From: a virus | Taxonomy: Duplodnaviria; Heunggongvirae; Uroviricota; Caudoviricetes | Reading direction: 5' to 3' (one strand) | DNA length: 42,839 nt | IMG/VR virus record: IMGVR_UViG_2870464427_000004 | Span: 1 to 42,839 of that record | Shown here: positions 3,475 through 36,854 of the stretch, piece after piece | Position numbering within the stretch: the stretch's first letter is position 1 | Layout: the number at the start of each line of letters is the position of its first letter | Translations under genes and position numbers: made by a program | The notes under the pieces: generated by a model | Databases searched by the model: none | Seen by the model: only the letters and a program-made list of their open reading frames with translations | What the model was told of the DNA's origin: nothing

Positions 3475-4136
3475 GCTCCTACATCAAAACCACTGATGAA
3501 TTCGTTATCCATATCAAAACCAAAAAATTTTGAGCCTTCCGATGGGGTTTCCACCGAAGGTGTTTCAATGCCACCCGCCCATACCCCGGCGGCTTTTACT
3601 GTGAGATACCCCTGTTTAATTGCCGCAATTAACTCACGCGATACATCTGAAATATCAGTATCAGGAAAGACCCAGACCGATATCGTCATGTCCTGGTTAT
3701 CGACTATCTGCATTCGCAGTCCGGATCCTGCTGTTGCCGCGTCAAGAATTGCCGGAAGCGAATCATTCCGTCCGTCCCAGTTATTAATCGCAATCTTCGC
3801 TTTAAGGATGACACGATAAGTTTCATCGCTGAGGTACATGTGTCCGGAATCAGGATCGTATGGCCCCTGCCATACACCCTGATCATATCCAAGCCCGTCG
3901 GTATCCCAGCTGAAATAGGCACCTGAAATAGGCTGGCTGACAACACGGCTACGTCCGATCCACAATCCCAGAATGTCAAGTTGCACACCAACCGCAGAGT
4001 CAAAATCAAATGCAGTAATCAGCCCTCTGGTGGCAGCCGCAACATCAATAAGCGGCCGGGTCATCAGATCAACATGTGCAAGAAATTTAGGTTTGGTGGC
4101 GTGGTAGTTCGTGATTAGTTCGGTGTATTTGCTCAT
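3456..4136 (-). CDS. Baseplate/tail protein (Mu gp48-like, putative)
   Basis: 226 aa, position between baseplate J-like gene and tail fibre; translationally coupled. Confidence 0.55.
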
Positions 4137-5332
4137 GACTCCACCGTTATAACGATATTTTCCGGGGTACAGGACGCAGATTCGTTGTATCTGATATCAA
4201 TGTTTGATGACGACAAAGCCCCCGGGGATTTCCCAATCGTCAGTTCCTGAATATCGTAATAGCGTGCATTCCCGCCACTCACCACGCCAAGATTCGCCGG
4301 TGAGTAAATGCGACTTAAAAGGACCGAATCACCAATCATCAGACTATTGATATAGTCGGAAATAGCCTGCTGGATCTGCTGCCCTATCTGTGAGGTATAA
4401 CCCGTAAAAACTTTTAATTTAATCCGGGCATAAACAGGCACATCACTGGAACGCGAAAATTTGATTACATGGGGATTGCCGTATTTATCCGGAACCGTAA
4501 CGGATGTTGTACCGTGAGTGGCTGTCCCCGGGCCTTTATTCCCTCTGATAGCCTGAGCAATATCCGTCACATCACCGCCATCCACAATTACAGCAACAGA
4601 GTGTGGCGGTAACCCGTTACCGTCCTCCGAACCATTATCGTTTTCATAGAGTTTGTGGCGGGTTACACCGGTAACATTAGAAACAGCACCATCCAGTGCT
4701 TCAAATGGGGTTATTGATGGCAACGCAACACTTTGCGACTGTCGGATACGTAACTCCGCATCAGTTTCTGCCGGAGTGCCCACAGTAGCCGCAGCAGGAT
4801 TGGTTACCGAAACCCAGCCACGGGTTGGCGTATTAATTTCAGTGATAGTTCCAGCCAGCGCCGCCACTGCACCACTGACGGAACATGTTGCGGTCACCAT
4901 CACTGTACCATCCACGCCGACCACCACTGAAGCAGGCAAACGCCATATCACATTATTACTGTCTTTCACGCTGCCATTAATGATGGTTGTTCCGGCAGTT
5001 CCTGTAAGAAGCAAATCAACCGTAGAGTTCGTCGCGCCTTTACGTGAAATACCATTTATTTTCACGTTACTGGTCAGTGCAGCCCCATAGCCGGTTGCTG
5101 GTGAAAAACAGTTGTAGACAGTTATCGCCATATTATTGGCATCATGAATCGCCAGCGCCATCAGAGCCACCATCTGACCGTCCTTACTGTCCGGTTCGAG
5201 GTAGGCATCACTACCATAAATCTGCTGAAAATAGCTAATCAGGGTGCTGAGTATCGTCTGATAATCAGGCGCACTGATCCCCTCCGCGGTTACCTTTGCA
5301 GATAAACCGAGAGAATCAAGGTTCAGAGCCAT
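4133..5332 (-). CDS. Baseplate J-like protein (Mu gp47-like)
   Basis: 399 aa, size and position typical of baseplate J family; overlapping start/stop with neighbours. Confidence 0.65.
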   Translation of the reverse strand: MALNLDSLGLSAKVTAEGISAPDYQTILSTLISYFQQIYGSDAYLEPDSKDGQMVALMALAIHDANNMAITVYNCFSPATGYGAALTSNVKINGISRKGATNSTVDLLLTGTAGTTIINGSVKDSNNVIWRLPASVVVGVDGTVMVTATCSVSGAVAALAGTITEINTPTRGWVSVTNPAAATVGTPAETDAELRIRQSQSVALPSITPFEALDGAVSNVTGVTRHKLYENDNGSEDGNGLPPHSVAVIVDGGDVTDIAQAIRGNKGPGTATHGTTSVTVPDKYGNPHVIKFSRSSDVPVYARIKLKVFTGYTSQIGQQIQQAISDYINSLMIGDSVLLSRIYSPANLGVVSGGNARYYDIQELTIGKSPGALSSSNIDIRYNESASCTPENIVITVES

Positions 5333-25183: not shown

Positions 25184-25606
25184 CTACAACCATAGCACAT
25201 GTTTTTGTGCGCACACAACCTTTTCAGGTAAAGCAACTTCAGGGTCCATATCCAGTCGAATTCCCTGGAGCACCAGCGCTCCCTCAAGAAATGCCTCTGA
25301 CGCTCTAAGCGATGTTCTGACGCTAAGGTGGCTACGATTCACAGATTCAGCGATTGAGCGCGTAGAAAAGCCGCCGATGAAACGTAGGCCAAGAACCAGC
25401 AAGTCGTCATGCGGACACACCATGCTCATGTGGACGATGCAGGTGTCAATTGCGGCTCCGTCCTCGTCGGAGCAACCGGGTTTGCCACTGGCGGTTACGC
25501 GTTGAGGAATCACCGACATCGAAGGCCAGTCAACCATTGAACAGTATTCCTCGCTCGCGGCCCATCGCCCCCACCGCTCCAGAACAAGTTGCATATCTCT
25601 GCGCAT
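25184..25606 (-). CDS. Late-gene antiterminator (Q-like)
   Basis: 140 aa; N-terminus MRRDMQLVLERWGRWAA resembles Q-family antiterminators; position between replication and lysis genes. Confidence 0.55.
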   Translation of the reverse strand: MRRDMQLVLERWGRWAASEEYCSMVDWPSMSVIPQRVTASGKPGCSDEDGAAIDTCIVHMSMVCPHDDLLVLGLRFIGGFSTRSIAESVNRSHLSVRTSLRASEAFLEGALVLQGIRLDMDPEVALPEKVVCAQKHVLWL

Positions 25607-25654: not shown

Positions 25655-26074
25655 TCACCCAACAGGGAAGAAGAACTCGTTTACCGCAAGGTCTAACGAC
25701 ATCTCTAACCCATCAGGCAGTTTGCGAGATGCTATTTTCTCCGGGGAGGTGTGTGTCGCGCCCTTTGGAATATCTTCCAGCTCAACAACGTTGCCGTGGG
25801 AAACCTCCAATTGACCCAGATCGCTATCCAGAGCAAGCGGACGTACCGCAGAAACCGGTGAGAAACCCTCCAGTTGCTCAAGAACAACAGCCCAGGCAAT
25901 CACCCTGCGAAACCAAAAAACCTCACCTGCAGGAGTCTGGTCCCTGTCAATAATGGGCTCTACGACCCAAAACCTTCGGGTTGTCTCGGCTTCCACTGAA
26001 CGTATGGCCGTGGATGCTTCTCCCGGTTCCGCTGTTTCATTTTCTATCATTTTTGAAACTTGTATTTTTTGCAC
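25655..26074 (-). CDS. Hypothetical protein
   Basis: 139 aa ORF between iteron region and Q-like gene. Confidence 0.4.
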   Translation of the reverse strand: MQKIQVSKMIENETAEPGEASTAIRSVEAETTRRFWVVEPIIDRDQTPAGEVFWFRRVIAWAVVLEQLEGFSPVSAVRPLALDSDLGQLEVSHGNVVELEDIPKGATHTSPEKIASRKLPDGLEMSLDLAVNEFFFPVG

Positions 26075-26125
26075 GTTTGTTTACTCCACTTAGCTATTTG
26101 CAGTTTTCTGCAAGTTTATTGTTGA

Positions 26126-26386
26126 AGTAACAGTAAGGTAACAGATAAATAGCTAACTGTTACCTCCTGTAGGGAGCGCCACATAAGGCTTAACCCCGTT
26201 TTGGGTAACAGGTAACAGTTACTTTTAGTTCTATATACGTATGCGCAGGTATAGTACGTATAATATAAAGTCTCGCGTATATAAACTAAATACTACTGTT
26301 ACCTGTTACCTTTTTTAGTTATCCATGTGAATTTATTGATATTTTCAAGGTAACAGTTAGTCGTTTTACTGTTACCTTACTGTTAC
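26126..26386. repeat. Iteron array: 10 copies of GGTAACAG (5 direct, 5 inverted) flanking an AT-rich core; putative replication origin
   Basis: Direct copies at 26126, 26136, 26203, 26210, 26348; CTGTTACC copies at 26156, 26295, 26302, 26368, 26379; AT-rich stretch 26221..26290 between inner blocks. Confidence 0.75.
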
Positions 26387-26390
26387 CTTT

Positions 26391-28655
26391 TTACAATCCA
26401 GATTGCAAAATTTCGCAAGTTTTATATATTTCGCGCAATTCCTCATTATTGAAGTCGCAATTTTTTGCAAGTATCCAGAAGCGATAACCCATTCCGTCAA
26501 TTTTTACTAAATCTGTTGGCTGCCTTTTTGTTTTTTCTCGCAATAGCTTTGTTATGTGCTTCTGGTTAATTTCTACATCCATTCCTGCTTCTGCCAGTAT
26601 TGCGTTAACAATTTGTTGATAAGTCATTGCTGGTACAGGCGGATTATCCAGGATTTCAGTAAGAGCAGCCTCCACATCGCTCTTATTGCTTTCAATCATC
26701 AGAAGGCGTTCTTTCGTCTCGGGGGCGCGCTGCCAGTTAAAGCGAGACAGGTCAACGCCCATCAGATACCAGTACACCTGGGCGATAAAGTCGCTGTCGC
26801 TTAGCGCACCGTACAGGCTGGCGTAATGCTCTTCAGTTGCGGCGAAGTCAGGGCCCCCCAGCACAGCGATACGTCGGTCTTCCTCTGGCAGCGCCAGCGC
26901 ATCAAAGTGGTTGGTGTAGAACAGAAAGCCGGTGTATATATCCATCGTTTTTTTGCTGCCATATTTGCGGTTCACTTCAAACCGTGGTTCTGTCAGCACA
27001 TCGCGGATCTTATCGTTCACCTCATACCGCTTATCGTTTTCGCGCACCTCGTCAATGGTGCATAGAAGCGTATTGTACAGATAGTCATGGAACTGGTTAT
27101 CGCACAGGATCTTCATGCGAGTACGAGCACAGTTCCACGGGCCAAGCACGCGCTCCATTAACTGGCTGACCCATCCTCTGCCCGTACCGTGTGCGGTAGC
27201 CACATGCAGAATAGAAATCGGGCATCGACGCTCCGGACGCTGAACCATCCACCCCAGACGGGCGATGAAAAACTCGCGCTGCCATACATCAGGTACCAGA
27301 TACGCCATATGATTAAGGAACGTGGACACCTTACTTGTATCCGCTGTACGTGGATGCTCAGGCATATAAAATTCGTTTATCTCAAACCGCCCGTCGAAAC
27401 GCTCGATAATACGTCCCGCACCGGGCTTATAGCCTGTCGTCTCAGCAATCTTCTTATGCCGATGCTCTATCCACCGTTTGGTTGCGGGAGTTGGTTGCCC
27501 TTTCCCTTCTGGCGGGAACTGGTAAGGCGCCATCAGGTTTTTGAACGACTTCATATCCATCATGCACTGATATGGCGGTCGGCTAAGATCACATACCTGG
27601 TCACCCTCGATGACGTAGATAAAGCGTTCCAGAAAATGAGCTGTCATATCTGTATTAATATCGGTAAATTCAGGCTTATCGCCATCTTCAGCCACCGTGA
27701 GATCTTCGAACAGGGATTGCGTATAGCCGTAGCCTTCCAGCCAGTCGGCATCAGTAAGCCCCGCATCGGTGTTGTGCATGCTTTTAAAATGTCCCTGTTC
27801 AAATCCCCCCGTCCCTTTTGGGAAATACTTAATGGATGTTTCGCTGCAACCGTTGCTGTATTCTGACTCATCCCGAAACGGTTTCAGATTGCGGGAACCA
27901 TCAGAGCTGACTGACAGAGTCCACCCGTTCGCGTCAAGCCAGTCGGCGACATCATCTGTCGCGGAAGGATCAACACAGGAAAGATCACGCTGACGTCCTG
28001 CACCTGCGGTATAGCTGTCTTTCACGGGTAAGTTATCCGCCAGACGCTGCCACAGGCTTTCGAGCTGTTCAGATGTAATTTTCAGAGGTTCGCCGGGCAA
28101 ACCGCAGTCCCACTGAATACGTTCGCCTGCCGGATGGGTACCACAAGCCACAAACTGCTGGCCCTTAGCGAGCAGCTCTATTTGTTTGTTTTCGCCTTCC
28201 AGGCGGTGACCACGTTTACGGTAGTCGCCATCAACAGCAATCAGGTACAGGCATTTATGACTGTCAGCCCGCCAGCGACGTGGCGGAAGTTCCCCCAGGC
28301 ATGACAGGATAATATTGCGTACGATCTCCTGCATCCCGGCGTCATTGATATCGCAGTCCAGAGCCACCACCCCGTCGCCAGTACGAACGCAAATACCGTA
28401 ATCGGGTTCGTTCGACCACCGGGCAAAATCGTTTTCCGTAACAACATAGTTAGCCCAGTCGGGGATACCAACAACCTTACGTTGGCCATTGTAGCGACTG
28501 GGTGTTTTGCCGAAATTATGAGACAGCTTGCTATTAGGCGACAATTCTGCACAGGGATTGGACACCACAGGTAAAAGCCTGTCTGTCATCCCCAACACCA
28601 GATCGAAGTGGAACCACTCATCAGGCGTAGCTCCCCATGGTTTGTTATCAGACAT
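26391..28655 (-). CDS. Replication protein: N-terminal archaeo-eukaryotic-type primase-polymerase domain with P4 alpha/D5-like C-terminal region
   Basis: 754 aa; VVALDCDINDAG (DxD primase motif) near N-terminus; follows cro-like gene; iterons immediately 3'. Confidence 0.75.
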   Translation of the reverse strand: MSDNKPWGATPDEWFHFDLVLGMTDRLLPVVSNPCAELSPNSKLSHNFGKTPSRYNGQRKVVGIPDWANYVVTENDFARWSNEPDYGICVRTGDGVVALDCDINDAGMQEIVRNIILSCLGELPPRRWRADSHKCLYLIAVDGDYRKRGHRLEGENKQIELLAKGQQFVACGTHPAGERIQWDCGLPGEPLKITSEQLESLWQRLADNLPVKDSYTAGAGRQRDLSCVDPSATDDVADWLDANGWTLSVSSDGSRNLKPFRDESEYSNGCSETSIKYFPKGTGGFEQGHFKSMHNTDAGLTDADWLEGYGYTQSLFEDLTVAEDGDKPEFTDINTDMTAHFLERFIYVIEGDQVCDLSRPPYQCMMDMKSFKNLMAPYQFPPEGKGQPTPATKRWIEHRHKKIAETTGYKPGAGRIIERFDGRFEINEFYMPEHPRTADTSKVSTFLNHMAYLVPDVWQREFFIARLGWMVQRPERRCPISILHVATAHGTGRGWVSQLMERVLGPWNCARTRMKILCDNQFHDYLYNTLLCTIDEVRENDKRYEVNDKIRDVLTEPRFEVNRKYGSKKTMDIYTGFLFYTNHFDALALPEEDRRIAVLGGPDFAATEEHYASLYGALSDSDFIAQVYWYLMGVDLSRFNWQRAPETKERLLMIESNKSDVEAALTEILDNPPVPAMTYQQIVNAILAEAGMDVEINQKHITKLLREKTKRQPTDLVKIDGMGYRFWILAKNCDFNNEELREIYKTCEILQSGL

Positions 28656-28658
28656 GGG

Positions 28659-28883
28659 TTACACCTTTTGCTGCTCTGAATTTTCGCCGTTTAATAGCCA
28701 GTCAGGATCGCATTTCAGAACTTTTGCCAATTCAAGGATGAAACCGGTACGGGTAGCGCGTCCGGACTCAAGGTATTGAACAGACTGCTGGCGCATGCCA
28801 ACACTTTTAGCCAATGAAGTTTGGGTTATACCTAAGGCTTTGCGGCGCTCCTTTATACGTGAAGCAAGGGTAGAACTGGTCAT
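28659..28883 (-). CDS. Cro-like HTH transcriptional regulator (XRE family)
   Basis: HTH segment LGITQTSLAKSVGMRQQSVQYLESG; divergent from CI-like repressor; start ATG 28883 with GAGGG RBS (ORF track extends to 28946). Confidence 0.7.
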   Translation of the reverse strand: MTSSTLASRIKERRKALGITQTSLAKSVGMRQQSVQYLESGRATRTGFILELAKVLKCDPDWLLNGENSEQQKV

Positions 28884-28900
28884 TGAGTAAGCCCTCATTA

Positions 28901-28963
28901 TTACAGGTTTACTTGTAATTACCTCACAGGCAACCTTGTTTGTCAAATACAGAAGTATCTGTA
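28901..28963. promoter_or_regulatory. Operator palindromes in cI/cro intergenic region
   Basis: TTACAGGTTTACTTGTAA (28901..28918) and TACAGAAGTATCTGTA (28948..28963); candidate -35 TTGTCA / -10 TAATCA for the cI side. Confidence 0.5.
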
Positions 28964-28990
28964 ATCATCAATGACAGAAAAGGAGTCAAC

Positions 28991-29620
28991 ATGAATCTTG
29001 CCAACCGAGCTAAAAAACGCAGAACAGAACTAAACTTAACTCAGGTCGAAGTTGCGAAACGAGCAGGCATTAGCCAGCAGTCGATTGAAGCTATAGAGAA
29101 TGGGAAAACACTTAAACCACGCAATCTTCTTGCTTTAGCGTCAGCTCTTGAATGCGATCCTAAATGGCTACTTCTTGGGGGCGATGTTGTTACAGATTTC
29201 AACTACGGAGCTCGAAGGGTGCCTGTTCTAAGCTACGTACAAGCCGGGGCTTTCACAAGCGCTGAGCTACTTCGTGAAGAAGGTGATTTCGAATACATTC
29301 TCACCACGGCTGAGCTATCAGAAAGTTCATTTGCGCTACGTATACGTGGGGATTCAATGGAACCTGAATTTAAAGAGGGGGACATCGTTATAATTGACAC
29401 TGACGTATACCCTACTCCTGGTGAATTCGTTGCGGCATGTAACGGTAGCCACGAAGCAACGTTCAAAAAATACCGCCCGGTAGGGATTGGCGCTAAAGGT
29501 GAGGAAGACTTTGAACTTGTTCCATTGAATAGTGATTACCCTATTTGTCGCTCCTGGGAAAAACCAATTAAGATCATAGGGACAATGGTAGAACATCGCA
29601 TATTCCGCAGAAAAAGATAA
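28991..29620 (+). CDS. CI-like repressor (HTH plus LexA/S24 peptidase-like autocleavage domain)
   Basis: HTH LNLTQVEVAKRAGISQQSIEAIENG; C-terminal GDSMEP and FKKY Ser-Lys dyad context; start ATG 28991 with AAAGGAG RBS. Confidence 0.85.
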   Translation: MNLANRAKKRRTELNLTQVEVAKRAGISQQSIEAIENGKTLKPRNLLALASALECDPKWLLLGGDVVTDFNYGARRVPVLSYVQAGAFTSAELLREEGDFEYILTTAELSESSFALRIRGDSMEPEFKEGDIVIIDTDVYPTPGEFVAACNGSHEATFKKYRPVGIGAKGEEDFELVPLNSDYPICRSWEKPIKIIGTMVEHRIFRRKR

Positions 29621-31841: not shown

Positions 31842-33143
31842 ATGCCAGACGTTCATGCACAACTTTCTCCATCATCAGCGCATCGATGGATGCGCTGCCC
31901 AGGAAGTCTGGCGCTGGAGGCCACACAACCGGATAAAGAAACAACTTTTGCAATCGAGGGCACTGCAGCGCACGCGCTTGCTGAAAAAGTTCTACGAAAC
32001 AGGCAAAGCCACCCGGAACACTACGCCGGATGCAATGTTTCTATGTTTCTCGGCTCATACCCCCTTCGCGAAAATCCTGATGATACATCTGGCCCACAGG
32101 TGGATGATGAAATGGTCGAAGCCGTTGGCCGGTATGTTGATACGGTCTGGACTCTTGCACAGAATAATGAACTATTGGTTGAACAACGTGTTGATTTCTC
32201 ACATATAACGGGTGTGGAAGAATCTTTCGGAACTGCCGACAGCATAATCATTGCTGGTAGCGAATTACAAATCCACGACCTGAAATATGGCAAAGGCGTC
32301 CGCATTGATGCAGAACAAAATGAGCAACTACAACTGTATGCTCTGGGTGCGCTCGAACAATTCAGCATGCTGTATGACTTTGAGACTGTAAGATTATTTA
32401 TTCACCAGCCGCGGCTTAACCACGTTTCAGAGTGGGCTCTGACGGTGGAAGAGCTCCAGGCGTTCGGTGAACGGGCACAGGAGGCCGCAACCAGTGCGAT
32501 CCTTGTTCTCAATATTGCTGAATGCGAAGGCATTGAGACACTACCGCTGGAAAACTTCATACCTGGAGAAAAACAGTGCCGCTTCTGTAAAGCAAAAGCT
32601 ATTTGCACTGCCCAGAAAATGCAGCATTTACAAACAGCGGCCAGCGACTTTGAAGATCTGACAAAGCCTGTCAGCGAAATAATCACCAATGCCAGCGCAC
32701 GTGTACCTCTGTTAACCATTGAGCAGCTTGCGGAGATCTATAGCCAGGCCGACTTTATTGAGTCCTGGCTAAAGGCAGTACGGGACCGGGTTCACAATGA
32801 ACTCAATGCCGGACATCCGGTACCGGGGTTTAAACTGGTAACAGGAAAACAAGGTAACCGGGCCTGGAGTGATGAAGAGGCAGCTCGCGCACTTCTGAAG
32901 GACCAGTTCAGGTACAAAACTGAAGAAGTATTCGACTTTAAACTTATTAGTCCCACAAAAGCCGAAAAACTTATCAAAAAGGCCAGTCCACGCCGTTGGT
33001 CAAAAGTCGAGGCACTGATAACACGAGCTGATGGTAAACCAACCGTCGTTCCCGAGTCAGACCCACGCCCCGCACTCAATATCAACCCTGTAAATGATTT
33101 CGACGACGTATCCGACGATACGCTAACCGCAGACCTCATCTGA
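31842..33143 (+). CDS. PD-(D/E)XK nuclease, Cas4-like (DUF2800-type phage exonuclease)
   Basis: N-terminal [22 protein letters not shown] nuclease motif, C-terminal Cys cluster [10 protein letters not shown]. Confidence 0.7.
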
Positions 33144-33158
33144 TTTAAGGAAATACCC

Positions 33159-33707
33159 ATGAAACTGAAGCTGAACAATGTTCGTCTGGCCTTCCCGTCT
33201 CTGTTTGAAGCTAAAACTGTAAACGGCGAAGGCGATCCGCGTTTCTCCGCAGTATTTTTAATGTCTCCCAAACACCCACAACTGGAAGAAATCCGTAAAG
33301 CTATGAAGCAGGTAGCGAAGGAAAAATGGGGAGAGAAGTGGGAGCCCATTTATAACCAGCTGGAGAAAAAACTCAATCTGTGCCTGCATGATGGTGATGA
33401 AAAAGCAGAGTATGAAGGCTTCCCCGGTAATTTCTTCCTGAATGCTGCTAACAAAGCGCGCCCAGCTGTTCTTGATCGCGATCGTTCGCCACTTATTCAG
33501 GCTGACGGACGTCCCTATGCAGGGTGCTATGTAAACGCCGTTATCGATATCTGGGCACAGGACAATAATTTCGGTAAACGCATTAATGCCTCACTCGGCG
33601 GAGTCCAGTTCCTGCGAGACGGCGATGCATTTGCTGGCGGCGGAGTGGCAAGCGCTGACGATTTCGACGATATCAGCGAAGGTGCTGATGCTGAAGCACT
33701 AATTTAA
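33159..33707 (+). CDS. DUF2815-like phage protein (putative ssDNA-binding)
   Basis: 182 aa, acidic C-terminal tail DDFDDISEGADAEALI typical of SSB-like proteins; conserved position after the nuclease. Confidence 0.55.
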   Translation: MKLKLNNVRLAFPSLFEAKTVNGEGDPRFSAVFLMSPKHPQLEEIRKAMKQVAKEKWGEKWEPIYNQLEKKLNLCLHDGDEKAEYEGFPGNFFLNAANKARPAVLDRDRSPLIQADGRPYAGCYVNAVIDIWAQDNNFGKRINASLGGVQFLRDGDAFAGGGVASADDFDDISEGADAEALI

Positions 33708-33728
33708 AAATATTCATCCCCCAGCTAC

Positions 33729-34397
33729 GTGCTGGGGTATCTCATGAGGGAAAGAATAATGTCACAGCCCGTATTAACTAATCACCTTAAAACTCAAATC
33801 ATCAATAACGCACTTGAGAAAGCGGGTATCCCCAAACGTAAATCAGCACTACGAGCTGCTCGTGTTGAATGGGCCGAACGTGTTCGGCTTGCAGCTATCG
33901 GGGGCGTAGAGAAAGAAGCTGAAATATTAAAAATTATAAAAAAAATAGAAATACTGGTATCAAAAGTCCCCGAAGCATTAAAAACCGCCAATAATATTAT
34001 CAGGAAAGAGTGTTACATGTGTCTGAATCTGGCAGGTTCTCGGGTTACCGTCTATTTCAACGGTAACTATCGAGGATATGAATCAGGGTCACCAGACCAT
34101 ATTCACAAAATCGCGCCGGGGGAATTTACCCTTCTGGCAAATGACCCTCTAGTTACAGAGTTTTACGGGTTTGATGCACTTTATGAGCAGATACAGAGCG
34201 ATGAGTCAGACATTCGACAGAATGTCAGCGCTGCACTCAGTAAAGTGCGCACAGTTAAGCGCCTGCTGGAAGAGTGGCCTGAAGCTAAAGAACTTCTGCC
34301 AGCCGATGCACCATCTGCTCCGCTTCCGCCAGCTATACGACGCGAAACTCTCAACGAAATGATCGGCCTCCCTTCTGACGAAGGGGTAGATGCTTAA
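33729..34397 (+). CDS. Hypothetical early protein
   Basis: 222 aa ORF; start uncertain. Confidence 0.5.
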   Translation: MLGYLMRERIMSQPVLTNHLKTQIINNALEKAGIPKRKSALRAARVEWAERVRLAAIGGVEKEAEILKIIKKIEILVSKVPEALKTANNIIRKECYMCLNLAGSRVTVYFNGNYRGYESGSPDHIHKIAPGEFTLLANDPLVTEFYGFDALYEQIQSDESDIRQNVSAALSKVRTVKRLLEEWPEAKELLPADAPSAPLPPAIRRETLNEMIGLPSDEGVDA

Positions 34398-34464
34398 TAT
34401 TTCTTATAACAAAGGCTGGCTTAAGAAAATAGTTATCCAAACCAGCCTACCGCAATACTAAAAA

Positions 34465-34734
34465 TTAAAATTCATTGAATTTAAAAAGACATTTCCCTAT
34501 TGGATTGCCATAGTCTCTACATGCCGAAATGCTGTCCCATACAGGCTGAGCCAAACACCCAAGAAAGAACCCAATAAGCGCAAAAATTATAATTTTGGGA
34601 AGAACACGATCCTTAGGACCTTCTTCACGTTCGAGCCATGCGCCACCAGCCCGAACTATTCTCCCTAAAATATAAAGAATGGGGAAAGCAATAATACCTA
34701 TCAATGAAAGTATTCCGATACCAAAGCTAAACAC
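34465..34734 (-). CDS. Small membrane protein (two predicted TM helices), opposite-strand accessory gene
   Basis: 89 aa, hydrophobic segments GIGILSLIGIIAFPILYIL and IIIFALIGFFLGCL; AT-rich by eye. Confidence 0.55.
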   Translation of the reverse strand: MFSFGIGILSLIGIIAFPILYILGRIVRAGGAWLEREEGPKDRVLPKIIIFALIGFFLGCLAQPVWDSISACRDYGNPIGKCLFKFNEF

Positions 34735-34790
34735 CGCCGTCTCCTTGTTTATTTACACCTACATAACCATATATCACACAAGGTTATTTT

Positions 34791-36854
34791 ATGTCCAATA
34801 TACTATGGGGTGACCTAGAAACCTATTGCGAAATCCCTATTACGAACGGTACCCATGCGTATGCCGAAGGCGTTGAAGTGATGCTGTTCGCATGGGCTAT
34901 CAACGACGGGCCCGTAAACGTGTGGGATATCACTGCCGGTAGTGGTATTCCACACGGCTTATACGAAGCAATCGCAGCCCCTGAAACCCTGCTTTATTTT
35001 CATAACTCTCACTTCGACCGCACCGTCCTGCGTTATGCAATGCCGCGACTGGCACCGCCAGTCGAACGTTGGCGCGACACGATGGTGCAGGCGCTGGCGC
35101 ACGGTCTCCCGGGGTCTCTGGGGGAACTCTGCGAAGTACTAGGCGTCCCGCAAGACAAAGCGAAGGACAAAGAAGGTAAAGCGCTGATCCAGCTGTTCTG
35201 TAAGCCACGCCCAAAAAACAGCAAACTGCGTCGGGCCACCAGTAAAACCCACCCGGAAGAATGGCGGCGCTTTGTTGCTTACGCCGGACTGGATATCGAG
35301 GCAATGCGCGAAGTCTGTAAACGTCTGCCGAAGTGGAATTATCAAGGGACAGAGCTGGCGCTCTGGCATCGTGATCAGCAGATCAACGACCGGGGCGTCT
35401 GCATGGACATGCAACTCGCGCGCGCTGCGATCGAAGCGGTAGACCAGGAGCAAAAGCGCCTGGCAAAGCGTACACAGGAAATGACTGATGGCGAAGTGCA
35501 GGCAGCCACACAACGGGACGCGTTGATTAAGCACATTGTTGAATCCTACGGTGTGGAGCTACCGGACATGCAACGCAGTACTCTGGAACGTCGTATTGCC
35601 GACCCCGATTTACCATCTGCCGTGAAAGAACTGCTGGCTATCCGCCTGCAGGCCAGTACTACCAGCACCAGTAAATACAAGGCACTGATGAAAGGCGTAA
35701 GCCACGACGGGCGCTTACGCGGTACGCTACAGTTCTGCGGGGCGTCACGTACCGGTCGTTGGGCCGGACGGCTATTCCAGCCCCAGAACCTTCCCCGCCC
35801 TTCACTAAAACAGGAACAAATAGACGAAGGCATCGAAGCACTGAAAGCCGGATGTGCAGACCTGCTGTTTGACAATATCATGGAACTAACCAGTTCAGCG
35901 TTACGTGGCTGCATTATCGCGCCAACAGGCAAAAAGCTGGTGGTAAGTGACTTGTCGAACATTGAAGGCCGTATGCTGGCATGGCTGGCGGGAGAAGAAT
36001 GGAAACTGAATGCATTCAGAGAGTACGACGCCGGAACGGGTCCGGACTTATATAAACTGGCGTATGCAAAAGCTTTCGATATTGCACCAGATGATGTTGA
36101 TAAACACATGCGTCAGATCGGTAAAGTCATGGAACTCGGTCTGGGTTATGGTGGTGGTGTGTCGGCCTTCATCACTTTTGCACTGGTTTACGGTCTCGAT
36201 CTCGACGAGCTGGCGAACGCCGCACTACCAAACATTCCCCGCGATGTTATCCGCGAGGCGAAAAGCTGGTACGACGAATCGGTTAAACGCAAGTCAACCT
36301 ACGGGCTTTCTGAACGGGTATTTATCGCCTGCGACTCACTTAAACGTCTCTGGCGCCGGGCGCATCCCGCGACCTGTGATTTCTGGTACGAACTGGAGCG
36401 CACCGTCCGCACTGCAATCGCCACACCGCAAAAAACATTGTATTGCGGTTATCTTAAAATCCGCCGCGATGGCGCGTGGCTGCGCATACAGCTACCATCC
36501 GGACGCGCTGTATGCTACCCGTCTCCGGTTATCGAAAAAGGGAATATCACCTACATGGGGGTTAACTCTTATTCGCGTAAATGGCAACGACTCAAAACCT
36601 ACGGCGGAAAGCTGGTGGAGAACATCACCCAGGCGGCCGCCCGCGACATTCTGGCCGGAAACATGCCGCTTATCGAAGATGCCGGTTACAGCATTGTGCT
36701 GACGGTACACGACGAGGTGATCACCGAAGCACCTGACACAGAAGATTTCAACGATAAAGCGCTTTCCGCGCTTCTCTCCACTGACCCCGAATGGGCGCCC
36801 GATATCCCACTGAACGCTGGCGGTTTTGAGGCGTACCACTACCGTAAGGATTAA
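34791..36854 (+). CDS. DNA polymerase, family A (T7-like) with 3'-5' exonuclease domain
   Basis: Exo motif GDLETY; Pol motif A DLSNIE (DxSxxE), motif [12 protein letters not shown], motif C VHDEV. Confidence 0.9.

What the first reader, a model, noticed from the sequence alone, without database searches (positions are those of the whole stretch)
26100..26480. Symmetric iteron array with AT-rich core downstream of the primase gene: candidate origin (P4 ori/crr-like logic)
Seen directly: ten 8-bp GGTAACAG / CTGTTACC repeats in mirrored blocks around a 70-bp AT-rich tract (26221..26290). A second motif family (GCAAGT at 26109, 26414 and 26466, inside the primase 3' coding end) lies nearby. Established analogy: satellite phage P4 alpha primase-helicase binds repeated octamers at ori and at crr just 3' of the alpha gene. 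Inference: these are binding sites for the C-terminal domain of the 754-aa replication protein.
Basis: partly seen in the sequence, partly recalled or inferred. Interest (0 to 1): 0.6.

Follow-up and report, generated by a model that had tools for sequence, protein, structure and literature searches.

The report
Prophage replication origin with matched iterons
The repeats are real and are very probably the prophage's replication origin, read by the tail end of its own primase-helicase; this origin type is already known from phage satellites, but has not been described for this phage family, which includes some Shiga-toxin phages.

Summary
The array is real. Nine exact GGTAACAG/CTGTTACC octamers plus one 7/8 copy lie in 26126-26387, against 0.71 expected in the whole window. 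They sit as (+,+,-)(+,+) | 77-bp core of 29% GC | (-,-)(+,-,-). The array starts 4 nt after the stop codon of the 754-aa PrimPol + SF3-helicase gene.

The GCAAGT "second family" is not above chance.

Relatives in E. coli, Salmonella, Serratia, Erwinia and Xenorhabdus keep the same ten positions and orientations. The word itself changes in concert at all ten sites (GGTNNCRG).

The word tracks only the last ~50 residues of the primase-helicase. E. coli proteins 97% identical to this one, but with another word, have 15-19 of their 18-24 differences at residues 703-746. DNA identity falls from 97-100% to 63-89% across one ~500-bp cassette made of the gene's 3' end plus the array. CI, Cro and the downstream ORF do not covary with the word.

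The tail is modelled as a winged helix, at moderate confidence.

Best explanation: a self-loading initiator-helicase origin of the SaPI/PICI type. It works like P4 alpha/ori but is not homologous to it. It is a new member of a known kind. Replication itself is untested.

The parts
26391..28655 (-). Gene for the 754-aa replication protein: N-terminal PrimPol (AEP primase-polymerase), central SF3 helicase (DUF5906) and a C-terminal predicted winged-helix domain.
   Evidence: Pfam Prim-Pol E = 3e-7 and DUF5906 E = 1.2e-13. The helicase domain of the NrS-1 phage polymerase, 6k9c, is matched at E = 6e-8 with the single sequence and 1e-19 with the profile. PHROG 1156 'DNA primase' E = 6e-84.
26472..26630 (-). 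Coding region of the predicted winged-helix domain (residues ~676-728): strand, helix, recognition helix 698-709, beta-hairpin wing 717-728.
26418..26549 (-). Specificity patch (residues 703-746). It holds 15-19 of the 18-24 amino-acid differences from E. coli relatives that use another iteron word; all but residue 746 fall within 703-736.
   Evidence: The relative with the same word (L006) has 3 differences, none of them here.
26100..26599 (.). Exchangeable 'specificity cassette': the 3' end of the gene plus the iteron array, inherited as one unit.
   Evidence: DNA identity of the window to L001, L002 and L003 is 97-100% over 26600-28599 but 63-89% over 26100-26599. Identity to L006, which has the same word, is 96-100% over 26100-26599.
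26126..26387 (.). The whole ten-site, dyad-symmetric iteron array: the candidate origin.
   Evidence: Positions and orientations are conserved in relatives.
26126..26133 (+). Iteron 1, AGTAACAG (7/8). It is the outermost site, farthest from the gene.
   Evidence: The relative L006 has an exact GGTAACAG here.
26137..26144 (+). Iteron 2, GGTAACAG, 11 bp from iteron 1.
26157..26164 (-). Iteron 3 (CTGTTACC on the + strand), the inverted partner of iteron 2, 20 bp away.
26204..26211 (+). Iteron 4, first of the inner doublet.
26211..26218 (+). Iteron 5, second of the inner doublet. It overlaps iteron 4 by one base (7-bp register) and abuts the core.
26219..26295 (.). AT-rich core (77 bp, 28.6% GC), the presumed melting and priming region. 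It carries words that are conserved whatever the iteron class: TTATATACGCGAGA (26271-26284) and GCGCATACGTATATAG (26231-26246), both read on the - strand.
   Evidence: for composition. for alignment A3, where the core words are conserved in E. coli, Salmonella, Serratia, Izhakiella and Erwinia.
26296..26303 (-). Iteron 6, inner doublet, mirror of iteron 5.
26303..26310 (-). Iteron 7, inner doublet, mirror of iteron 4.
26349..26356 (+). Iteron 8, mirror of iteron 3.
26369..26376 (-). Iteron 9, mirror of iteron 2.
26380..26387 (-). Iteron 10, mirror of iteron 1. It ends 3 nt before the stop codon of the primase-helicase gene (26391-26393).
26098..26117 (.). Conserved non-coding word TTGCAGTTTTCTGCAAGTTT just outside the array, upstream of the 139-aa ORF. 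Whether it belongs to the origin is uncertain.
   Evidence: It is conserved as CTTGCAGAAAAnnGCAAATA in enterobacterial relatives (columns 296-320). No function is assigned.

Best explanation
Region 26126-26387 is the prophage's origin of replication, of the kind used by self-loading initiator-helicases.

Proposed mechanism: the 754-aa protein (PrimPol primase-polymerase + SF3 helicase + C-terminal winged helix) reads the ten GGTAACAG sites with its C-terminal domain. The mirror-image layout places protein on both sides of the 77-bp AT-rich core. The core melts, two helicase rings load in opposite directions, and the PrimPol domain makes the first primers. Elongation would use the phage's own family-A polymerase and SSB, which lie elsewhere in the window. 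Host DnaA is not needed.

Shown here:
- the array, its symmetry and its position;
- conservation of the ten-site layout;
- concerted change of the word;
- exclusive covariation and physical linkage with the protein's C-terminal ~50 residues;
- the domain content of the protein.

Inferred:
- actual binding;
- melting at the core;
- double-ring loading;
- bidirectional firing.
For: 1. Nine exact and one 7/8 octamer lie in 262 bp, against 0.71 expected in 42.8 kb. They are arranged in dyad symmetry around a core of 28.6% GC.

2. In gene orientation, the site positions after the stop codon are 4+, 15+, 35-, 81+, 88+ | core | ~175-, ~182-, ~228+, ~248-, ~259-.
- They recur in the window plus 14 relatives from complete genomes: E. 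coli, Salmonella, Serratia, Izhakiella, Erwinia and Xenorhabdus.
- They recur in about 24 of 31 full-length IMG/VR loci.
- Six different words are used in this layout: GGTAACAG, GGTGACGG, GGTGACAG, GGTGGCAG, GGTGTCAG and GGTTGCAG.
- Each word change has been made at all ten sites of a locus.

3. Looser versions with other words follow homologous genes in Pasteurellaceae, Algicola, Rhodobacteraceae, Hyphomicrobiaceae and a Blastopirellula MAG.

4. E. coli proteins 97% identical to the window's, but with another word, differ at 18-24 residues, of which 15-19 lie at 703-746. The relative with the same word differs at 3 residues, none in that stretch.

5. A Salmonella protein only 70% identical overall, with a divergent PrimPol domain, has the window-type C-terminus and GGTAACAG sites.

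6. The residues that track the GGTAACAG class across six genetic backgrounds are T714, L716 and F726.

7. DNA identity shows a sharp cassette boundary near 26600.

8. The C-terminal domain is modelled as strand-helix-helix-hairpin, and its fold matches are mostly winged helices. The variable residues fall on the putative recognition helix, the following loop and the wing.

9. CI is 100% identical and Cro 99% identical between the window and L003, which uses GGTGGCAG. The same downstream ORF (WP_000034494) occurs with two different words.

10. The window contains no DnaA box (TTWTNCACA: 0 matches). There is no excess of promoters or terminators and no Rfam hit.

11. The same logic has been shown experimentally for SaPI/PICI Rep-ori (PMC9371898, PMC6092414) and for P4 alpha (annotated in the P4 record).
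Against: - No experiment here shows binding or replication.
- GC skew shows no extremum at the array. It is confounded by gene orientation.
- The winged-helix model has only moderate confidence (pLDDT 68.8). Foldseek gives no significant match (best E = 0.024).
- There is no sequence similarity to the characterised iteron-binding domains of P4 alpha or the SaPI Reps.
- The same wing sequence is not required for the same word: GGTGGCAG is paired with several different wings. The recognition code is therefore not simple.
- Many IMG/VR loci may be copies of the same prophages, so the counts are not independent.
- The array could be a protein-binding control element rather than the start site itself.
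Confidence: 0.77

Rival explanations
1. The array is bound by the primase-helicase C-terminus but is a cis control element, used for copy control, handcuffing or as a loading enhancer like P4 crr. The real start site would lie elsewhere in the phage.
For: In P4 the repeats just 3' of alpha are crr, not ori. The covariation seen here proves only a cognate protein-DNA pair, not initiation. GC skew gives no origin signal at the site.
Against: Only one cluster of the word exists in the window; the single extra copy at 32837 is within chance. The array contains its own conserved AT-rich core with mirror-image doublets abutting it. That is the layout of the proven SaPI/PICI origins (PMC9371898, PMC6092414). 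P4 crr, by contrast, is two direct 120-bp repeats.
Confidence: 0.12
2. The octamers are operators for another DNA-binding protein (CI, Cro, the 139-aa downstream ORF or a host factor). They would regulate transcription between the replication gene and Q.
For: The array lies in an intergenic region upstream of the 139-aa ORF and Q. The cI/cro operators contain a partly similar half-site, TACAG.
Against: CI is 100% identical and Cro 99% identical between the window (GGTAACAG) and L003 (GGTGGCAG). The same Cro accession occurs with different words in L003/L004 and in L005/L006. The same downstream ORF occurs with GGTGACGG and with GGTGGCAG. A host factor cannot explain six different words within one host species. 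No sigma-70 promoter is found on the gene strand.
Confidence: 0.03
3. The array is a partition (centromere-like) site or a packaging site.
For: Clustered inverted and direct short repeats are also typical of parS and pac sites.
Against: No ParA/ParB-like hit was found among the proteins scanned by Pfam. The terminase genes lie about 4 kb away, and the array is linked to the primase-helicase gene, not to the terminase genes, across mosaic relatives. Its word covaries with the helicase C-terminus.
Confidence: 0.02
4. The repeats are a chance cluster or a decaying relic with no function.
For: None beyond the general caution that short repeats do occur by chance.
Against: No shuffle out of 100 reaches the observed count. 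Position is conserved to the base, and all ten sites are rewritten in concert across genera.
Confidence: 0.01

Closest known systems
SaPI / PICI replicons (Rep1, PriRep5 and the E. coli PICI EcCICFT073 pri-rep-ori)
   Same: - The origin lies immediately 3' of the initiator gene.
- Two sets of short iterons flank a central AT-rich region, with at least two on each side pointing in opposite directions.
- The initiator is itself an SF3 helicase, in PriRep5 fused to a primase.
- A C-terminal winged helix reads the iterons.
- Initiator and origin form specificity pairs.
- For PriRep5, the helicase domain of the NrS-1 phage polymerase is reported as the closest structural homologue, and the same domain is this protein's best PDB sequence hit (PMC9371898, PMC6092414).
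   Different: - The carrier here is a complete temperate phage with terminase, portal, tail, lysis, Q and cI/cro genes, not a satellite.
- There is no detectable sequence similarity to the solved Rep1/PriRep5 chains.
- The iterons are octamers rather than penta- or hexamers.
- The ten-site layout is fixed almost to the base across genera.
[quoted passage not shown]
Satellite phage P4 alpha protein with ori and crr
   Same: - One polypeptide combines a primase, an SF3 helicase and a C-terminal winged helix.
- It binds 8-bp repeats present in both orientations.
- One repeat cluster (crr) lies just 3' of the alpha gene (PMC2777425).
- The P4 repeat read in alpha orientation, GGTGAACA, resembles GGTGACAG and GGTAACAG.
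   Different: - The P4 primase is DnaG-type, whereas this one is PrimPol/AEP (PMC2777425).
- There is no sequence similarity: BLASTP E = 0.36, and hhalign gives 0.1% for the C-terminal domain.
- P4 needs two elements about 4.7 kb apart, and crr is a pair of direct 120-bp repeats. Here there is one dyad-symmetric element.
Archaeal plasmid pRN1 ORF904
   Same: PrimPol + SF3 helicase + C-terminal winged helix in one protein. The essential cis region lies downstream of the gene (PMC2777425, PMC4234260).
   Different: No iteron array or specific binding has been demonstrated for pRN1 (PMC2777425). It is an archaeal plasmid. Homology beyond the shared Pfam PrimPol family was not tested here.
Lambda-type O protein and ori-lambda iterons
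   Same: Both occur in lambdoid regulatory settings. In both, an initiator domain and its iterons diverge together into specificity types (established knowledge of lambda, 434, phi80, 82 and P22; not tested here).
   Different: Lambda iterons are direct repeats inside the O gene, read by the N-terminal domain, and the host DnaB is recruited through P. Here the sites lie outside the gene, are mirror-symmetric, are read by a C-terminal domain, and the initiator is itself the helicase and primase.
SV40 large T antigen and papillomavirus E1 core origins
   Same: These are SF3 helicase-initiators that assemble as two hexamers on closely spaced inverted short repeats next to AT-rich DNA (established knowledge). 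The inner overlapping doublets that face each other across the core recall that design.
   Different: This is an analogy only. The origin-binding domains are of a different type, and nothing was tested here.

Membership tests
SaPI/PICI-type origin (self-loading Rep helicase with 3' iteron ori) | Origin immediately 3' of the initiator gene | tested here: met
   The first iteron starts 4 nt after the stop codon in the window and in nearly all relatives.
SaPI/PICI-type origin (self-loading Rep helicase with 3' iteron ori) | Two sets of iterons flanking a central AT-rich region, with at least two per side in opposite orientation | tested here: met
   Five sites lie on each side of a 77-bp core of 28.6% GC, and the inner doublets are mirror images.
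SaPI/PICI-type origin (self-loading Rep helicase with 3' iteron ori) | The initiator contains an SF3 (or SF6) helicase domain | tested here: met
   DUF5906 E = 1.2e-13. The helicase domain of the NrS-1 phage polymerase is matched at E = 1e-19 with the profile.
SaPI/PICI-type origin (self-loading Rep helicase with 3' iteron ori) | C-terminal winged-helix domain that recognises the iterons | tested here: inconclusive
SaPI/PICI-type origin (self-loading Rep helicase with 3' iteron ori) | Cognate initiator-origin specificity | tested here: met
   Computational only. Six words in the conserved layout each pair with particular C-terminal variants. There is a cassette boundary near 26600. CI, Cro and the downstream ORF are excluded.
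SaPI/PICI-type origin (self-loading Rep helicase with 3' iteron ori) | Gene plus origin drive autonomous replication | not testable with these tools
   Needs a plasmid assay like the one done for EcCICFT073 (PMC6092414).
PICI / phage satellite (the element, not the origin) | The element lacks phage structural and lysis genes and depends on a helper phage | tested here: not met
   The window and its isolated relative vB_EcoM-606R2 encode terminase, lysis proteins, Q and a long block of ORFs on the same strand as the late genes.
SaPI Rep1 / PriRep5 protein family | Detectable sequence homology to the solved Rep proteins | tested here: not met
   A profile search of the PDB returned only the NrS-1 chains at E of 1 or below, plus two chance hits.
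P4 alpha / ori-crr system | DnaG-type primase domain fused to the helicase | tested here: not met
   The N-terminal domain here is Prim-Pol, PF09250. That P4 alpha is DnaG-type is taken from PMC2777425.
P4 alpha / ori-crr system | Sequence homology to alpha, including its C-terminal DNA-binding domain | tested here: not met
   BLASTP E = 0.36 for the full length. hhalign gives 0.1% probability for the C-terminal domain. The profile search of the PDB for the C-terminal domain does not return 1KA8.
P4 alpha / ori-crr system | Two separated cis elements (ori and crr) carrying the same repeat | tested here: not met
   The window has one cluster only. The P4 layout was confirmed from record X51522.
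Iteron plasmids / DnaA-dependent origins | DnaA box(es) next to tandem direct iterons and an AT-rich unwinding element at one end | tested here: not met
   TTWTNCACA has no match anywhere in the window. The sites are mirror-symmetric around the AT-rich core.
Lambda O/P origin | Iterons inside the initiator gene, plus a separate helicase loader | tested here: not met
   The array is intergenic. Only one small HTH gene lies between cI and the primase-helicase gene, and no O- or P-like hit appears among the flanking proteins scanned.

The most novel reading that the evidence does not exclude
The 'PICI-type' origin is not a hallmark of satellites.

- It would be the native origin design of a large family of PrimPol-SF3-winged-helix replicons in complete temperate phages, including some Shiga-toxin (Eru10-type) prophages.
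- Recognisable forms extend from Enterobacterales to Alphaproteobacteria and possibly Planctomycetes. A degenerate form may exist in Chi-like phages.
- Its fixed ten-site layout would position two helicase rings head to head.
- A ~500-bp cassette (winged helix plus array) would be swapped under diversifying selection. This would create mutually orthogonal replicons, for example to escape cross-activation or hijacking by co-resident prophages and satellites.
- The natural wing-to-word pairs would then amount to a readable recognition code for a winged-helix domain.
Probability: 0.35. Interest if true: 0.62.

Novelty: new member of a known kind. Interest (0 to 1): 0.5.

Why it matters
- It assigns an origin and an initiator-specificity domain to a phage replication module that is so far annotated only as 'DUF5906 / hypothetical protein'. 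The module occurs in E. coli, Salmonella and other enterobacterial prophages, including an Stx2b prophage (the Eru10 type of PMC8951638, where no origin is described).

- It shows that an origin organisation thought to be exclusive to PICI satellites also occurs in complete phages. This bears on where satellite replicons came from.

- The natural series of near-identical proteins with different words offers a clean system to test three things: how a winged helix chooses its DNA word, how a self-loading SF3 helicase is placed on an origin, and whether replicon specificity classes act as incompatibility or anti-hijacking groups.

- Practically, it gives a compact, DnaA-independent gene-plus-origin unit, with several probably orthogonal versions, that could be used as vectors.

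Tried and rejected
- **GCAAGT as a second motif family.** Not enriched: 19 found against 24.3 expected. The longer look-alike pattern YYGCN6YYGCAAGT gives 3 matches against 0.1 expected, but it was derived from those same three sites, so the test is circular. Relaxed palindrome and CII-like patterns are not enriched. The copy at 26403 encodes C-E-I-L-Q, and relatives vary its synonymous sites.
- **GC skew, fine and coarse.** No extremum at the array; the skew follows gene orientation.
- **Promoter and terminator scan.** No excess, and nothing on the gene strand.
- **Rfam.** No hit in the window.
- **DnaA boxes.** None in the window.
- **CI, Cro and the downstream ORF as readers.** Rejected, because identical proteins occur with different words.
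- **Homology to P4 alpha and to solved SaPI Reps.** Not detected.
- **Pfam on the C-terminal 128 residues.** Nothing meaningful.
- **Literature searches.** Searches for the doublet strings, and for DUF5906 together with origin or iteron, found no description of this origin. The library covers open-access papers only.
- **Isolated phages.** Only four deposited phages carry a related array, and none annotates an origin.
Full report
**1. What is in the sequence**

GGTAACAG occurs ten times in the 42.8-kb window when both strands are counted. Nine of these copies lie in 26137-26387. Chance expectation is 0.71, and the largest count in 100 shuffles is 4. A tenth site, aGTAACAG at 26126, matches 7/8.

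The order on the + strand is (+,+,-)(+,+), then a 77-bp core (26219-26295, 28.6% GC in a window of 50% GC), then (-,-)(+,-,-).
- The dyad centre is near 26257.
- The 39-nt outer arms are 87% complementary and the 27-nt inner arms 85%.
- The outer direct pairs are 11 bp apart.
- Their inverted partner is 20 bp away.
- The inner doublets overlap by one base.

**2. Setting**

All genes from about 2.6 to 28.9 kb run on the - strand. The order is: a Cro-like HTH gene (28659-28883), the 754-aa gene (26391-28655), the array, a 139-aa ORF (25655-26074), Q (25184-25606), then lysis and terminase genes.

cI is divergent, at 28991-29620.

The 754-aa protein has a Prim-Pol domain and a DUF5906 SF3-helicase domain. 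Its only relatives in the PDB are chains of the NrS-1 phage polymerase, matched over its helicase domain.

The window is a complete temperate phage. Its closest isolated relative is Escherichia phage vB_EcoM-606R2. Its array region (25950-26520) is 100% identical to prophages in two complete E. coli genomes.

On the other side of cI the phage encodes a DUF2800 nuclease, an Enc34-type SSB, an Nmad5 protein and a family-A DNA polymerase.

**3. The decisive comparison**

In vB_EcoM-606R2 and in five E. coli prophages, the intergenic region after the homologous gene has the same ten sites in the same places and orientations. The word differs: GGTGACGG in three, GGTGGCAG in two and GGTAACAG in one.

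The same holds in Salmonella, Serratia, Izhakiella, Erwinia and Xenorhabdus, and in about 24 of 31 full-length IMG/VR loci.
- In gene orientation the sites lie at 4+, 15+, 35-, 81+, 88+, core, ~175-, ~182-, ~228+, ~248-, ~259- after the stop codon.
- Six words are used: GGTAACAG, GGTGACGG, GGTGACAG, GGTGGCAG, GGTGTCAG and GGTTGCAG.

The alignment shows GGT..C.G and the spacing held fixed, while positions 4, 5 and 7 change at all ten sites of a locus at once.

Looser arrays with other words follow more distant homologues (32-46% identity) in Limnobaculum, Pasteurellaceae, Algicola, an unclassified gammaproteobacterium, a Cardiobacteriaceae MAG (partial), Rhodobacteraceae and Hyphomicrobiaceae MAGs and a Blastopirellula MAG. 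One homologue, in Devosia, has none.

Ten sites rewritten in concert, with their layout preserved, imply one trans-acting reader per locus.

**4. Who reads them**

The E. coli proteins are 97% identical to the window's.
- Those paired with another word differ at 18-24 residues, of which 15-19 lie at 703-746.
- The one paired with the same word differs at 3 residues, none in that stretch.
- A Salmonella protein only 70% identical overall, with a divergent PrimPol domain, has the window-type tail and GGTAACAG sites.
- Across six backgrounds that use GGTAACAG, the only columns separating them from the other E. coli proteins are T714, L716 and F726.

At the DNA level, identity of the window to the other-word relatives is 97-100% over 26600-28599 and drops to 63-89% over 26100-26599. 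Identity to the same-word relative stays at 96-100%. The 3' ~200 nt of the gene and the array therefore travel as one ~500-bp cassette.

The alternatives fail.
- CI is 100% identical (173 aa compared) between the window and L003, which uses GGTGGCAG, and Cro is 99% identical.
- The same Cro accessions occur with different words, as does the same downstream ORF.

**5. The reading domain**

An AlphaFold2 model of residues 627-754 (12-sequence alignment, mean pLDDT 68.8) gives a strand, two helices, a beta-hairpin and a terminal helix.

The variable residues map to the second half of the putative recognition helix (703-708), the following loop (712-716) and the wing (717-728).

This fits a winged helix. 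It is a prediction of moderate confidence, not a demonstration.

**6. Mechanism proposed**

The C-terminal domains dock on the ten sites. The mirror symmetry places protein on both flanks of the AT-rich core. The core melts, two SF3 rings load facing opposite ways, and the PrimPol domain primes. Elongation would use the phage's own polymerase and SSB.

The core carries words that are conserved whatever the iteron class: TATATACGCGAGA and GCGCATACGTATATAG in gene orientation. This suggests recognition by the invariant part of the protein, possibly as a melting or priming site. That is inference only.

No DnaA box exists in the window.

**7. Comparison with known systems**

The closest is the SaPI/PICI replicon.
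- Its origin lies immediately 3' of rep.
- Its iterons flank an AT-rich centre, with at least two per side in opposite orientation.
- Rep is an SF3 helicase, fused to a primase in PriRep5, with a C-terminal winged helix that reads the iterons (PMC9371898).
- An E. coli PICI gene-plus-origin unit drives plasmid replication (PMC6092414).

All the anatomical criteria are met here. However, the element is a complete phage rather than a satellite, and the protein shows no detectable sequence similarity to the solved Reps.

It is not homologous, though: the primase type differs and BLASTP gives E = 0.36. P4 also uses two separate elements.

pRN1 ORF904 shares the PrimPol-SF3-winged-helix design and a cis region downstream of the gene (PMC2777425).

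**8. Novelty**

The replication module is listed as Eru10 among Stx phages, with no origin described (PMC8951638).

No paper in the searchable library mentions these repeats. No deposited phage record annotates them.

The kind of system is known. This is a new and widespread member with an unusually rigid layout and a clear specificity cassette.

**9. Limits**

- Nothing here measures binding or replication.
- GC skew is uninformative.
- IMG/VR and genome loci overlap, so they are not independent samples.
- The relation between wing sequence and word is many-to-one.
- The conserved word at 26098-26117 and the core motifs remain unexplained.

Noticed in passing
window 31842-36854 (+ strand): The phage encodes a DUF2800/PD-(D/E)XK nuclease (31842-33143), an Enc34-type ssDNA-binding protein (33159-33707), an Nmad5 'nucleotide modification associated' protein (33729-34397) and a family-A DNA polymerase (34791-36854). 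Phages of the Chi and Enc34 groups have primases that are distant homologues of this one. The Nmad5 gene hints at possible DNA modification.
   Followed up: partly
L108 (Salmonella phage Chi, KM458633) 3950-4235: About 430 bp 3' of the Chi primase gene gp2, beyond a small opposite-strand HTH gene, lies a cluster of GGTTACA/TGTAACC repeats with an AT-rich tract. Its right half has the same layout as here: (-,-) then (+,-,-). There are 17 matches with one mismatch allowed, against 9 expected. It may be a degenerate relative of this origin in Chi-like phages.
   Followed up: partly
window 26098-26117, 26403-26422, 26455-26474: Three look-alike words, TTGCRA-N4-TYGCAA followed by GT. Those at 26098 and 26403 flank the array, about 150 and 156 bp from the dyad centre; the one at 26455 lies about 208 bp out. 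The non-coding one (26098) is conserved in enterobacterial relatives. The two coding ones are explained by protein sequence. No function is assigned.
   Followed up: partly
window 26231-26246 and 26271-26284: Words in the AT-rich core are conserved irrespective of iteron class: GCGCATACGTATATAG and TTATATACGCGAGA in gene orientation. They form an imperfect inverted pair, CTATATACG...CGTATATAA. This is a candidate melting or priming site.
   Followed up: no
window 28898-28965: The cI/cro intergenic region has palindromic operator-like words, ATTACAGGTTTACTTGTAAT and ATACAGAAGTATCTGTAAT. They are unrelated to the iteron classes, since CI and Cro are the same in loci with different iteron words.
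   Followed up: partly
L004 (E. coli CFIAFB20190157) 590-1825: A relative of this replication module sits in an Stx2b-converting prophage. The gene order there is cI, cro, primase-helicase, array, 96-aa ORF, Q, tRNA-Arg, stxA2b and stxB2b. This matches the 'Eru10' layout of PMC8951638.
   Followed up: partly
proteins P0046, P0050, P0057-P0120; loci L057-L106: The PrimPol N-terminal ~330 residues of this protein (up to 98% identity) are also found fused to a different helicase half, VapE (PF05272), in many enterobacterial prophages. Conversely, the helicase plus tail is found with other N-termini (P0040-P0045, P0054). The protein is therefore a mosaic of at least three exchangeable modules.
   Followed up: no
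L107 (phage P4) 4291-4590: In alpha-gene orientation the P4 crr type-1 repeat reads GGTGAACA(G). That is one base longer than GGTGACAG and GGTAACAG, and it also occurs as a closely spaced doublet preceded by AAAGGT. The proteins show no sequence similarity. It is unknown whether this is convergence or deep ancestry.
   Followed up: partly
L016 (Erwinia tracheiphila) and L021 (Arsenophonus endosymbiont): The primase-helicase gene looks disrupted or truncated in these genomes. The Erwinia array is still intact, while the Arsenophonus one is partly eroded. This fits decaying prophages in host-restricted bacteria.
   Followed up: no
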